64,000 nt of DNA from Escherichia coli (GTDB lineage: Bacteria > Pseudomonadota > Gammaproteobacteria > Enterobacterales > Enterobacteriaceae), in NCBI RefSeq assembly GCF_050920415.1, contig NZ_CP169310.1, one strand, 5' to 3'. Position numbers: made by a program. Positions 51,001-54,000 of this stretch are shown here, in pieces; position 1 is the stretch's first letter; each line of letters begins with the position of its first letter.

Positions 51001-54000
51001 TCCCCGACGGCCGCCCGGATAGCCTGCGAGCGTCCGGAAAAGGCCTCCACCGGTACGCCCGGCATTTCCCACATACCGTGCTTACCAACCACTTCAGTTT
51101 CATAGCCCAACGCCTCAACCTGCTCTTTCAGTTTTTCCCGGTAGAGCCTGCCAAAGGCAATCTGATTAGCGTACACATTCTCAATGAACCCCGTTTTCCC
51201 CACTTTGTCACTGCTCAGTGTCTTCCACTCGCCGTTATGCTGCGTGACATTAGCCACCACCGCATGCGTGTGTAACTGTGGTTCCTGATCGCGACTGGTG
51301 TCGTGGTTAAACAGTGCCATCACCAGATTACCGGTCAGTACCGTTTCTGACTGTCCGTCCGTCATCACCCGTGTGGAGGCCAGCGCCTCCACCTGACGGA
51401 CAGCAAAATCCACGGCCTGATTATGTGCATCAATCAGGCGCTTATCGCCACCTGGCATGGCCATCATGGAGACACTTTTGGGGGCGGAGAACGTCAGGTC
51501 GTAACCGGGACGATGCCTGTTACTGCCATCCTGCATGCGGCTTAAATCCGCTCCGTCCGGCAGTTTCCCCTCCAGAAGACGGGTAAAGACATCCTTATCG
51601 ACACTGCCCTGCAGCCCCAGTTGCTCTGCCCCCCTGCCGGCCCAGCGTTCCCCCATGCTGCCCAGCACATAGTAATTATCCTTGTCGGTATAATAGTTAC
51701 CGGCACTTCCGGCCGATCTGACCTGCGCGATACTCATCATAAACGTATATCCCTTTGACATATCCCGACAACGATCCCACAATGGATATGCGCAAGACAT
51801 ATCCATGTAAGGAGGTAAATGATGGAAACCACCGTATTTCTCAGCAACCGCAGCCAGGCGGTCAGGCTGCCAAAAGCGGTTGCATTGCCGGAAAACGTAA
51901 AACGCGTTGAAGTGATTGCTGTCGGACGAACCCGTATCATTACGCCAGCCGGAGAGTCATGGGATGAATGGTTCGACGGAAACAGCGTCAGCGCTGATTT
52001 TATGGATAACAGGGAACAGCCCGGCATGCAGGAAAGGGAGTCATTCTGATGCTGAAGTTTATGCTCGATACCAACATCTGCATTTTCACAATAAAGAACA
52101 AGCCCGCCAGTGTCAGAGAACGTTTTAACCTGAACCAGGGGAGAATGTGTATCAGCTCTGTCACCCTGATGGAGCTGATATATGGTGCAGAAAAAAGCCA
52201 GATGCCTGAACGCAATCTCGCTGTGATCGAGGGATTTGTTTCCCGCATTGATGTTCTGGATTACGACGCTGCCGCAGCCACACACACCGGCCAGATAAGA
52301 GCAGAACTTGCCCGTCAGGGACGCCCTGTCGGACCATTTGATCAAATGATCGCAGGTCATGCCCGCAGTCGGGGACTGATTATTGTGACTAATAACACCC
52401 GGGAATTTGAACGTGTGGACGGTCTGCGAATTGAAGACTGGAGCTGACCTGTTCATCAGAAATCATCTCCCGGCTCAACATCCTCCCCGCGCTCCCGGTG
52501 CACGTTGATATTTACCTCTTCACGGCGCTGCATCTGCTGCTGGATATCCGGATTCTGCTCCCGTTGCCATGCCTCATAAACGGCCATATCCACCACTTCA
52601 CCGGATTCACTGATCCCGGGTGGCAGTTGCTGTTCCATCTCTTCTTCCGGTTTCATTTTCAGCTCCTGCGCGATCCCCCCTGCCGGAACACTCACACCTG
52701 CATCTGACTTCTTATCATTGATGACAGAAGACACTGGCTGTTGTGGCTGTTCAGCCTGAGTCACGTCTTCTCCGGAGACAACCTCCGGTTCGAAGAGACT
52801 GGCCATCTGGCGACCTTCTGCTTCCCTTGCAGCAAGCACGGCGCTCAGGCGGTTCTCCATTTCCGGATTGAGGTCACGCGGAATAAACTCCGGAGCAACC
52901 TTCGGTCGTGCCTGATATTTCAGTGAGAGTTTTACTGCCGGATACGGTCCGGGCAGGGTGACATAGCAGGTCAGATCCGGCAGAGACTGAATGTCGGAAT
53001 AACTGACCAGCGTCTGGCGCTCCATATCCTTACCGGTCGATACCCCGTCACGTACAGGGTCAGCACCGTAGGAATACTGCTCGCTGGCTTTCAGGTGCTC
53101 TTTCTCACCAATTTCACCGGCAGCGAACTCTGCAATCTTATGGCTGGGAGAACGGAAAAAGGCACGGGTGTTCATGACGTCAAACAGCGTGGCTGCCGCT
53201 TTCTCACCGTAGATATCTTCCAGCTGGGCATAGGACTGGATACCAAACACATAACAGCCACCGAACTTACGGGCTTCCGGCAGGATCTCCACCAGGTCCG
53301 GCAATTTGTGTAACGTGGGTAACTCATCACAGAAAAACCACACACGACGGTTACGGTTTTCTCCCATTGCCAGCAGCCCACGAATGGCAATGGACAGCCA
53401 CATGGAGATCACCGGTTTCAGGGAAGCATGGGTGTCGGCGTTCGACGAGATAAACAGCCAGCCGTTTTTCTGATCTTCCCGGACACCACGCATCCAGTCA
53501 CGGATGGTGAAGGGCTCACCGTTATGCTCAATCCCCTGCAGGTAACGGATGGCTTTCACGTAGTTGGTCAGCACTGCACGGATGGAAATCGCCGTTTTCT
53601 CGATTTTCTCTTCCACCAGGTTGGCCGCAGGTGAATTACGCAGGAAGGTACGCAGTTTTTCAATTTTGATGGAAAGCAGTGTGTCCACCAGTTTGCTGTA
53701 GCTGCGGTTGGGGTCATTGCGCATCAGGTACGCCGCTTCCGCAAAAATGGTACGTCCTGAACCCTGCCAGAACGGATCCTCTTTTGTACCCATCGGGATC
53801 AGGGTATTTGCCGTATTATCAAAATCCGGCTGTGTCAGGCACTCCTTCCACAAATCCCAGGCGGCACAGCGGGCATCCAGCGGATTCAGGATCTTATCAA
53901 TGGACGGGTCATAGTAACTTTTAACAAATTCCCCTGATCGGTCATAAATCACCACCATATCACCACGCTGACGGGCGTAGTTGGCCAGACGACGGATAAC

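What the first reader, a model, noticed from the sequence alone, without database searches (positions are those of the whole stretch)
51819..52447. vapBC addiction module occupies the traD-traI interval in antisense orientation
Where the F plasmid has trbH (as I recall the gene order), this sequence has vapB-vapC on the opposite strand, convergent with traD (9 nt between stops) and divergent from traI (78-bp shared promoter region). Divergent promoters could couple toxin-antitoxin expression to tra transcription.
Basis: partly seen in the sequence, partly recalled or inferred. Interest (0 to 1): 0.35.

Follow-up and report, generated by a model that had tools for sequence, protein, structure and literature searches.

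The report
vapBC cassette nested in tra operon
This is the well-known VapBC toxin-antitoxin "addiction" cassette lying backwards between the conjugation genes traD and traI, exactly as in the classic F plasmid, where the frame on the opposite strand was historically named trbH; so the arrangement is ordinary, and the only new point is that the trbH frame seems to be kept free of stop codons just so ribosomes can cross the cassette.

Summary
vapB (51822-52049, +) and vapC (52049-52447, +) lie between traD (52456-54600, -) and traI (46470-51740, -). There are 8 nt between the convergent stops, and 81 nt (78 from an unconserved upstream ATG) to the traI start.

The contrast with F is wrong. F (NC_002483) carries the same vapBC at the same site. 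"trbH" is the 239-codon tra-strand frame antisense to vapBC, present here at 51737-52456. pSLT and Shigella pINV share the arrangement; R100 has the empty site, with traD and traI overlapping in TGATG. About 27-28% of F-like plasmids carry it, and it is published. The gap holds the autoregulated vapBC promoter/operator, and no divergent traI promoter was found.

One result goes beyond the finding. The tra-sense frame has no stop codon in all 13 tra-embedded copies with intact or recently decayed tra (five genus-level groups plus F/pINV relatives). Only 1 of 76 copies elsewhere is stop-free. Its start overlaps the traD stop and its stop overlaps the traI ATG. Its amino-acid sequence is not conserved. 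It is best read as a translational bridge (inferred, not tested).

The parts
52456..54600 (-). traD (type IV coupling protein), 714 aa. Its stop codon TGA (52458-52456) shares one base with the ATG of the tra-sense bridging frame (TTCTGATG).
52049..52447 (+). vapC, PIN-domain tRNA(fMet)-specific endonuclease toxin, 132 aa. Catalytic residues D7/E42/D98/E119 are intact. It carries R32, the allele also found in F, pSLT and S. sonnei.
   Evidence: residue roles from bioRxiv 2020.08.10.243006
51822..52049 (+). vapB, AbrB/MazE-type antitoxin, 75 aa. Its stop overlaps the vapC start (ATGA). The extra in-frame ATG at 51819 is not conserved in F.
51741..51821 (+). vapBC promoter/operator region: -35 TTGACA at 51755-51760, -10 CACAAT at 51778-51783, SD AAGGAGG at 51809-51815. 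Operator half-sites: GTATATCC 51745-52, ACATATCC 51758-65, GGATATGC 51784-91, ACATATCC 51797-804 (perfect inverted repeat ATGGATATG/CATATCCAT at 51782-90 and 51798-806). On the tra strand the same DNA encodes the last 27 codons of the bridging frame and the traI ribosome-binding site (AAGGGA).
   Evidence: operator binding is inferred from Winther & Gerdes 2012 as cited
51737..52456 (-). 'trbH': a 239-codon stop-free frame on the tra strand, codon-aligned antisense to vapC. Its ATG (52456-52454) overlaps the traD stop and its TGA (51739-51737) overlaps the traI ATG (51740-51738). Read here as a translational bridge, not a conserved protein.
46470..51740 (-). traI (relaxase/helicase). The true start is ATGATG at 51740; the longer ORF listed from 51806 is an upstream extension.
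51741..52456 (.). 716 bp of extra DNA relative to empty-site plasmids (pVM01, pU14A_B, R100). Its last 4 nt, TCAT (52453-52456), repeat the 4 nt just before it (51737-51740); on the tra strand this is ATGA.

Best explanation
The feature is the canonical enteric VapBC (also called MvpAT, VagCD or STBORF1/2) type II toxin-antitoxin cassette. It sits on the opposite strand inside the distal part of an F-like tra operon, between traD and traI, and is the same locus as in F, pSLT and Shigella pINV.

How the cassette works (established for near-identical proteins, inferred here). VapC is a PIN endonuclease that cleaves initiator tRNA-fMet. VapB neutralises it. The VapBC complex represses its own promoter through the inverted repeats that fill the 81-bp region upstream of vapB. 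Cells that lose the plasmid lose the labile VapB and stop growing, which is plasmid addiction.

How the tra operon copes with the cassette (inferred from comparative sequence evidence). The cassette, about 716 bp, separates traD from traI, which in plasmids without it are translationally coupled (TGATG). The tra-sense frame across the cassette, historically called 'trbH', is kept free of stop codons. It starts on the old traD-stop/traI-start signal and ends in ATGA on the traI start. Ribosomes leaving traD can therefore translate across the C-rich antisense stretch and re-initiate at traI. This would keep the coupling and protect the transcript from Rho-dependent polarity or from pairing with vapBC mRNA. 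The TrbH polypeptide itself is probably a by-product.

There is no evidence for a divergent traI promoter in the gap.
For: Identity: family matches above curated cut-offs. VapB is 74/75 and VapC 130/132 identical to solved Shigella VapBC. Catalytic residues D7/E42/D98/E119 are present. The promoter and operator motifs are conserved from E. coli to Serratia, Pantoea and non-tra E. coli copies.

Same locus elsewhere: F, pSLT, pINV. Also Serratia, Enterobacter, Pantoea, Edwardsiella and E. albertii plasmids. Empty site in R100, pVM01 and pU14A_B. About 90% of plasmid copies of this vapBC lineage lie in this interval (1165 against 1271-1293 records).

Bridge:
- The tra-sense frame has 0 stops in all 13 tra-embedded copies whose tra genes are intact or only recently decayed. 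Among 76 copies elsewhere only 1 has 0 stops; most have 1-8 and AT-rich ones up to 14. Two E. coli non-tra copies at 91-92% protein identity have 2 and 4.
- A synonymous-codon null using each plasmid's own traD/traI codon usage gives P(no stop) of 0.007-0.44 per lineage. The product over five clades is about 5e-6 to 3e-5.
- Synonymous sites are near saturation between clades (pS 0.48-0.81, equal to traD/traI at 0.50-0.73), so the clades are nearly independent. vapC shows no synonymous-rate deficit, and the antisense frame has dN/dS of 1.1-4.2. So only stop-freeness is conserved, not the TrbH sequence.
- In every clade the frame's ATG overlaps the traD stop (TGATG or TAATG) and its TGA overlaps the traI ATG. 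Interval lengths are 715, 751, 778, 814 and 817 nt, all 1 mod 3.
- Relics of a duplicated traD-stop/traI-start junction flank the cassette in Serratia and Pantoea (0 of 300 shuffles each).
- The one tra-embedded copy with truncated traD and traI (a Hafnia alvei plasmid) has 6 stops in this frame.
- The tra-sense RNA over the cassette is C>G (C/G 1.11, against 0.74-0.85 in traI/traD).
Against: - No expression data were available: neither translation of the frame nor any polarity effect was shown.
- The per-lineage null probabilities are modest (0.1-0.4) in several clades, so the case rests on the combination of clades and on the controls.
- Only one relaxed-selection case (Hafnia) was found. 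In pINV, where tra is decayed, the frame is still open, though that copy is only about 5% diverged from F.
- From memory, not verifiable here: kan insertions in F trbH did not impair transfer (Maneewannakul & Ippen-Ihler 1993, cited in PMC5102898). The tra operon is also RfaH-dependent, which already counteracts Rho. Both would make the bridge less necessary.
- traI has its own Shine-Dalgarno-like sequence in all clades, so coupling may not be essential.
- The R32/A58 alleles carried here gave little plasmid stabilisation in a model vector, so the strength of addiction by this copy is uncertain.
Confidence: 0.75

Rival explanations
1. trbH is a genuine conjugation protein gene that happens to overlap vapBC on the other strand. 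The frame is open because the TrbH protein is needed.
For: The frame is intact and correctly phased in every clade with intact tra genes. It has been annotated as 'conjugative transfer protein' and was used as an F Tra protein in comparative studies (PMC5102898).
Against: There is no Pfam or NCBIfam family. There is no amino-acid conservation beyond what vapBC forces: dN/dS of the frame is 1.1-4.2, and vapC shows no synonymous-rate deficit relative to traD/traI. Length varies from 239 to about 280 aa, with unrelated terminal extensions. The frame is absent from about 72% of F-like plasmids, including transfer-proficient R100. From memory, F trbH mutants transfer normally.
Confidence: 0.08
2. 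One reading: the 78-bp gap is a shared divergent promoter region, so vapBC and traI transcription are co-regulated.
For: vapB and traI do diverge from the gap. VapBC binds operators located 5-65 bp from the traI ATG, so some cross-talk, such as a roadblock to tra-strand RNA polymerase, is conceivable.
Against: No sigma-70-like site lies on the tra strand within the gap; the only match there is the + strand vapBC promoter. The gap is too short to hold a second promoter plus leader, since the vapBC -35 lies 15 bp from the traI ATG. In empty-site plasmids traI starts inside the traD stop with no promoter. traI is part of the long tra operon, and the tra-sense frame reads straight through the gap.
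Confidence: 0.07
3. The stop-free tra-sense frame is a by-product of codon usage and shared ancestry (rare TTA/CTA/TCA codons) and has no function.
For: The frame is codon-aligned antisense to vapC, so stops arise only from TTA, CTA or TCA codons, which are rare in these plasmids. Single-lineage null probabilities are 0.1-0.4 in E. coli, Salmonella, Enterobacter and Pantoea.
Against: All clades are stop-free despite near-saturated synonymous divergence. Edwardsiella lineages have P of 0.007-0.05. Among non-tra copies 75 of 76 have stops, including E. coli copies. The non-coding flanks are also open and in phase in five length classes. The frame's start and stop overlaps with traD and traI are conserved. 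The copy whose tra genes are decayed has 6 stops.
Confidence: 0.12
4. The placement serves regulation by antisense or convergent transcription: tra-operon read-through lowers vapBC expression, or vapBC transcription lowers traI, linking toxin activity to conjugation state.
For: The two transcription units fully overlap in opposite directions, and there is no terminator between vapC and traD (8-nt spacer). An antisense 'trbH' transcript is reported for Shigella vapBC.
Against: No data here bear on transcript levels. The cassette functions in pINV, where the tra operon is decayed. This reading is compatible with the bridge model and does not replace it.
Confidence: 0.25

Closest known systems
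F plasmid traD-trbH-traI region (NC_002483: vapC 91966-92364, vapB 92364-92591)
   Same: Same genes, order, strands and spacers (8 nt and 81 nt), and the same 239-codon tra-sense frame with identical start and stop overlaps. About 96% nucleotide identity over the interval.
   Different: A few substitutions: VapB S46T; VapC L43V, R89L, D124G. F lacks the extra upstream ATG at the vapB start.
Shigella flexneri/sonnei pINV VapBC (MvpAT; PDB 3TND, 6SD6, 9H6A)
   Same: VapC is 130/132 and VapB 74/75 identical to solved chains. It has the same promoter/operator and the same flanking traD/traI remnants.
   Different: In pINV the tra genes are decayed: a 54-aa traD remnant, an IS3 element and a disrupted traI. 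S. flexneri carries the derived VapC K32 and VapB T58 alleles, which stabilise better. The window has R32 and A58, like S. sonnei, F and pSLT.
Salmonella pSLT vapBC2 ('encoded within the trbH gene')
   Same: Same site and architecture, with a 715-nt interval and an open tra-sense frame. The proteins are detected by mass spectrometry and contribute to plasmid stability (PMC4366850, PMC5065971).
   Different: 86% nucleotide and 95% protein identity. Synonymous sites are about half diverged.
R100/R1-type F-like plasmids (empty site)
   Same: The same traD and traI genes flank the position.
   Different: No cassette: the traD stop and the traI start overlap (TGATG). About 72% of F-like plasmid records are of this type.
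Translationally coupled overlapping genes and Rho-dependent polarity in long operons (general principle)
   Same: ATGA/TGATG overlaps at both ends of the bridging frame, and a long C-rich stretch that would be untranslated without it.
   Different: Here the coupled 'gene' appears to have no conserved product and exists only as the antisense of another operon. I found no published description of trbH in these terms; the paper searches were limited to open-access literature.

Membership tests
Enteric VapBC (MvpAT) type II toxin-antitoxin system | Toxin is a PIN-domain protein that matches the tRNA(fMet)-specific VapC model above its curated cut-off | tested here: met
   Pfam PF01850, E 2.7e-21; NCBIfam NF010285, 290.6 bits against a cut-off of 143
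Enteric VapBC (MvpAT) type II toxin-antitoxin system | Four acidic active-site residues (D7, E42, D98, E119) | tested here: met
   All four are present. The residue list comes from bioRxiv 2020.08.10.243006.
Enteric VapBC (MvpAT) type II toxin-antitoxin system | An AbrB/MazE-type antitoxin gene lies immediately upstream and overlaps the toxin gene (bicistronic operon) | tested here: met
   NF040493, 112 bits against a cut-off of 60; PF04014. The vapB stop and vapC start share ATGA at 52046-52049.
Enteric VapBC (MvpAT) type II toxin-antitoxin system | Autoregulated promoter with inverted-repeat operators | tested here: met
   The motifs are present and conserved across clades. Protein-DNA binding cannot be tested with these tools.
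Enteric VapBC (MvpAT) type II toxin-antitoxin system | tRNA-fMet cleavage, neutralisation by VapB, and post-segregational killing | not testable with these tools
   Inferred from 98-99% identity to characterised proteins. The R32 allele was weak in a stability assay.
F-like (MOBF/MPF_F) tra operon, distal segment | traG-traS-traT-traD-(interval)-traI-traX on one strand | tested here: met
   ORFs and RefSeq annotation of the identical record NZ_CP012500; TraS Pfam hit
TrbH as a protein family | Amino-acid sequence under purifying selection, or a recognisable domain | tested here: not met
   No Pfam or NCBIfam hit. dN/dS of the frame is 1.1-4.2, with no synonymous-rate deficit in vapC.
Divergent (shared) promoter region for traI and vapB | A promoter on the tra strand inside the 78/81-bp gap | tested here: not met
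   The consensus scan finds only the + strand site.
Translationally coupled ORF chain traD > trbH frame > traI | Stop/start overlaps at both junctions and an uninterrupted frame, conserved across lineages | tested here: met
   TGATG or TAATG at the traD junction and ATGA or TGATG at the traI junction in all clades; 0 stops; interval lengths all 1 mod 3
Translationally coupled ORF chain traD > trbH frame > traI | The frame is actually translated, and traI expression depends on that | not testable with these tools
   Needs ribosome profiling or stop-codon knock-ins

The most novel reading that the evidence does not exclude
The 30-year-old orphan gene 'trbH' of F-like plasmids is not a protein gene. 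It is a selected, stop-codon-free translational bridge. When the vapBC cassette inserted backwards into the traD/traI overlap, with a duplication of that junction, selection then kept the tra-sense frame open and in phase across Enterobacterales. This lets ribosomes carry the tra transcript across a C-rich antisense stretch and re-initiate at traI. Synonymous codon choice in a toxin gene would then be constrained by the operon on the other strand.
Probability: 0.55. Interest if true: 0.5.

Novelty: already known. Interest (0 to 1): 0.3.

Why it matters
As submitted, the finding matters little. It rediscovers the standard F, pSLT and pINV configuration and rests on a mistaken memory that F has something different at this site.

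It is still useful as an annotation warning. trbH and vapBC are the same DNA read on opposite strands, and comparative studies that score 'TrbH' as a conjugation protein (found in only 8% of plasmids in PMC5102898) are really scoring annotation habits.

The extra result would matter modestly if confirmed by experiment. It would be a clean natural example of selection acting only on the absence of stop codons, allowing an operon to tolerate a foreign cassette inserted antisense within it. It would also give a simple rule for deciding whether an embedded TA cassette still sits in a working tra operon: frame open means tra intact.

Tried and rejected
- Rfam scan of 51300-53000 on both strands found only two chance-level hits to eukaryotic families (E 0.4-0.9, far below gathering score), so no known RNA element.
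- Folding the tra-sense RNA around the traI start gave z = -0.94, nothing special.
- A - strand promoter-like site at 52116-52088 (CTGACA-17-TATTGT), inside antisense vapC, was considered as a possible traI or as-trbH promoter. I rejected it as evidence: it is a 9/12 match, the total number of sites equals the shuffle expectation (2 against 1.3), and its -10 is weaker in F.
- The terminator-like hits inside or after vapC are short and at chance-like frequency, so I did not use them.
- An 8-nt CAGGTCAG match between the two junctions in the E. coli-type cassette is not significant (9 of 300 shuffles). Only the Serratia and Pantoea junction duplications are.
- I tried to read Maneewannakul & Ippen-Ihler 1993 (trbH mutants) and Radnedge et al. 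1997 (STBORF1/2 overlapping trbH). Neither is held, and a search for 'STBORF1' found nothing. Statements about these papers rest on my memory.
- Searches for prior descriptions of translational coupling through trbH found none in the open-access library.
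Full report
**1. What is in the window.**
ORF listing and direct reading show the tra genes on the - strand: traG, traS, traT, traD (52456-54600) and traI (46470-51740). The traI ORF is listed from 51806, but the conserved N-terminus MMSIAQV starts at 51740.

Two + strand genes lie between traD and traI.
- **vapB** runs 51822-52049, with an extra in-frame ATG at 51819.
- **vapC** runs 52049-52447 and overlaps vapB in ATGA.
- Pfam and NCBIfam identify them as a MazE/AbrB-type VapB (NF040493, E 1e-32) and the tRNA(fMet)-specific PIN endonuclease VapC (NF010285, E 1e-87, 290 bits against a cut-off of 143).
- They are 74/75 and 130/132 identical to crystallised Shigella VapB and VapC. 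The active-site residues D7, E42, D98 and E119 are intact.

The spacer between the two convergent stop codons is 8 nt, not 9. The gap to traI is 78 nt from 51819 and 81 nt from 51822. The second value is the relevant one: F has ATAATG at this point, and both RefSeq and the solved protein start at METTVF.

The window is 100% identical here to pCFSAN004180G (NZ_CP012500), an IncFIA/FIB plasmid of 225 kb.

**2. The contrast with F is mistaken.**
The RefSeq record of F (NC_002483) has traD at 89804-91957, vapC at 91966-92364 (opposite strand), vapB at 92364-92591 (opposite strand) and traI from 92673. The architecture and spacers are identical, and the interval aligns at about 96% identity.

The window also contains a 239-codon ORF on the tra strand at 51737-52456, and F has the same one. 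This is what was named trbH.
- One deposited record (pSBLT, LN794247) annotates trbH on one strand and vapB_1/vapC_1 on the other over the same coordinates.
- The literature states that pSLT vapBC2 is 'encoded within the trbH gene' (PMC5065971).
- It also states that Shigella vapBC has 'an antisense transcript named trbH' (bioRxiv 2025.06.29.662172).
- From memory, since the paper is not held: Radnedge et al. 1997 already described two small ORFs that fully overlap trbH in the opposite direction in pMYSH6000 and F.

- F, pSLT and pINV carry the cassette. In pINV the tra genes are decayed: a 54-aa traD remnant, an IS3 element and a disrupted traI.
- R100 lacks it, and its traD and traI overlap by one base.

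**3. How common it is.**
- In PLSDB, 4185 records match the traD/traI flanks and 1165 carry the whole arrangement.
- The remaining records join traD directly to traI.
- A search with the cassette alone finds 1293 records, 1271 of them near full length. So about 90% of plasmid copies of this vapBC lineage sit in this interval.
- Among 5426 complete E. coli genomes, 2799 have the flanks and 758 have the full arrangement.

So this is a common presence/absence polymorphism, occupied in about 27-28% of F-like plasmids. It is not a peculiarity of this window.

**4. Anatomy of the insertion.**
Compared with empty sites, the window has 716 extra bp (51741-52456). The last 4 nt, TCAT, repeat the 4 nt before the insert; on the tra strand this is ATGA, the traD-stop/traI-start overlap itself.

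Two more divergent lineages keep larger relics of a duplicated junction.
- In Serratia pQE21 the tra-sense frame starts ATGATAAGCATTGGCCA. This copies the traI start ATGATGAGTATTGGCCA.
- In a Pantoea contig the sequence before traI is GGGAGGATACATCTGATG. This copies the traD end GGGAGGGTACATTTGATG.
- Each match was reached by 0 of 300 shuffles.

The ancestral insertion therefore duplicated the traD/traI junction. That left a ribosome-binding site and an ATG at both ends of the cassette.

**5. The gap between vapB and traI.**
The gap contains a strong + strand promoter (-35 TTGACA at 51755-60, 17-nt spacer, -10 CACAAT at 51778-83). It also contains four related half-sites, GTATATCC/ACATATCC/GGATATG, including a perfect 9-nt inverted repeat.

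These elements are conserved in F, pSLT, pINV, Serratia, Enterobacter, Pantoea and even in E. coli vapBC copies outside tra. This fits the published autoregulation of vapBC through operator repeats (Winther & Gerdes 2012, as cited).

No sigma-70-like match lies on the tra strand within the gap. The vapBC -35 element is only 15 bp from the traI ATG. The divergent-promoter idea therefore has no sequence support. In empty-site plasmids traI has no upstream gap at all.

**6. The tra-sense frame (trbH) is kept open.**
- **Occupied sites with tra intact or recently decayed.** I examined 13 such copies: window, F, E. albertii, pINV, pSLT, three Serratia, Enterobacter, Pantoea and three Edwardsiella. 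In all of them the frame that is codon-aligned antisense to vapC has no stop across vapBC. The other two antisense frames have 8-15 stops.
- **Controls.** Among 76 vapBC homologues in other contexts, drawn from 100,044 species genomes and plasmids, only one is stop-free (a Pseudomonas copy at 64% GC). Most have 1-8 stops. Two E. coli copies at 91-92% protein identity have 2 and 4.
- **Null model.** I kept the VapB and VapC proteins fixed and redrew synonymous codons from each plasmid's own traD/traI usage. P(no stop) was:

| Lineage | P(no stop) |
|---|---|
| window | 0.12-0.19 |
| pSLT | 0.16 |
| Serratia | 0.04-0.09 |
| Enterobacter / Pantoea | 0.38-0.54 |
| Edwardsiella | 0.007-0.05 |

.
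- **Independence of clades.** Synonymous sites are near saturation between clades (pS 0.48-0.81). This matches traD/traI (0.50-0.73), so the cassette has co-diverged with the tra genes and the clades are close to independent draws. The product over five clades is about 5e-6 to 3e-5.
- **Flanks and phase.** The non-coding flanks are open as well. The frame's ATG overlaps the traD stop (TGATG or TAATG) and its TGA overlaps the traI ATG in every clade. The five interval lengths (715, 751, 778, 814, 817 nt) are all 1 mod 3.
- **No protein-level conservation.** The encoded amino-acid sequence is not conserved. dN/dS of this frame is 1.1-4.2, and vapC shows no deficit of synonymous change. There is no domain hit.
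- **A relaxed-selection case.** The Hafnia alvei plasmid has the same site, but traD is truncated to residues 347-714 and traI is annotated as a 109-aa fragment. Its frame carries 6 stops.
- **Base composition.** The tra-sense RNA over the cassette is C-rich (C/G 1.11, against 0.74-0.85 in traD/traI). From general knowledge, that is the composition Rho prefers on untranslated RNA.

**7. Interpretation.**
*Shown:* the identity of the cassette; its equivalence to the F, pSLT and pINV locus; the empty-site alternative; and the conserved stop-free, correctly phased tra-sense frame.

*Inferred:* the frame is maintained so that ribosomes finishing traD translate across the cassette and re-initiate at traI. 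This would preserve the ancestral traD-traI coupling and prevent Rho-dependent polarity or pairing with vapBC mRNA. The TrbH polypeptide would be a by-product.

*Caveats:*
- There are no expression data.
- Several single-lineage probabilities are modest.
- There is only one relaxed-selection example.
- traI has its own Shine-Dalgarno-like sequence.
- From memory, F trbH insertion mutants transfer normally and the tra operon uses RfaH.

*Function of the cassette itself.* It is inferred from near-identical characterised proteins: cleavage of initiator tRNA, neutralisation by VapB and post-segregational killing. The window carries VapC R32 and VapB A58. These are the alleles of F, pSLT, Serratia and S. 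sonnei, and in a model vector they stabilised far less than the S. flexneri K32 form.

**8. Verdict.**
The finding as written describes a real but already known and common arrangement, and its claim of difference from F is an error of recall. Its mechanistic suggestion of divergent promoters is unsupported.

The one result with some novelty is the comparative evidence that 'trbH' is a selected stop-free bridge rather than a protein gene. I could not find this stated in the searchable literature. It needs the experiments listed under next steps.

Noticed in passing
L007:3700-3745 and 2955-2980; L014:2890-2925 and 2150-2180: Relics of a direct duplication of the traD-stop/traI-start junction flank the vapBC cassette. 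In Serratia, a 17-nt copy of the traI start sits at the traD side. In Pantoea, an 18-nt copy of the traD end sits at the traI side. In the window only 4 nt (TCAT) remain. This suggests the cassette entered by an event that duplicated about 35 bp or more of the junction; the mechanism is unknown.
   Followed up: partly
L091:2100-4400 (Hafnia alvei plasmid NZ_CP015380): The same traD-vapCB-traI site, but traD is truncated to residues 347-714 and traI is annotated as a 109-aa fragment. Here the tra-sense frame across vapBC has 6 stops, unlike every copy with intact tra genes.
   Followed up: partly
window 52049-52447 and 51822-52049: VapC carries R32 and VapB A58. These are the alleles of F, pSLT, Serratia and S. 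sonnei. S. flexneri's K32/T58 looks like the derived state, and K32 was reported to stabilise plasmids much better (bioRxiv 2020.08.10.243006). The addiction strength of this copy may therefore be weak.
   Followed up: partly
window 54601-56303: About 1.7 kb lie between traD and traT, with two - strand ORFs of 217 aa (54656-55309) and 203 aa (55621-56232) that have no Pfam hit. RefSeq annotates one hypothetical protein here. In F, traT and traD are only about 250 bp apart.
   Followed up: no
window 45990-46421: A 143-aa hypothetical ORF without a Pfam hit lies between traI and traX. In F, traX follows traI after about 20 bp.
   Followed up: no
L009:2274-2896, L010:2274-2896: E. coli also carries a sister vapBC (91-92% VapC identity, 45-46% GC) outside any tra context, including one chromosomal copy. 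It has the same operator motifs but 2-4 stops in the antisense frame.
   Followed up: partly
PMC5102898 (literature): A comparative study of 256 F-like plasmids scored 'TrbH' as the least conserved Tra protein (8%) without mentioning vapBC. Because most annotations call vapBC instead of trbH, that figure reflects annotation practice; here the site is occupied in about 28% of records.
   Followed up: partly
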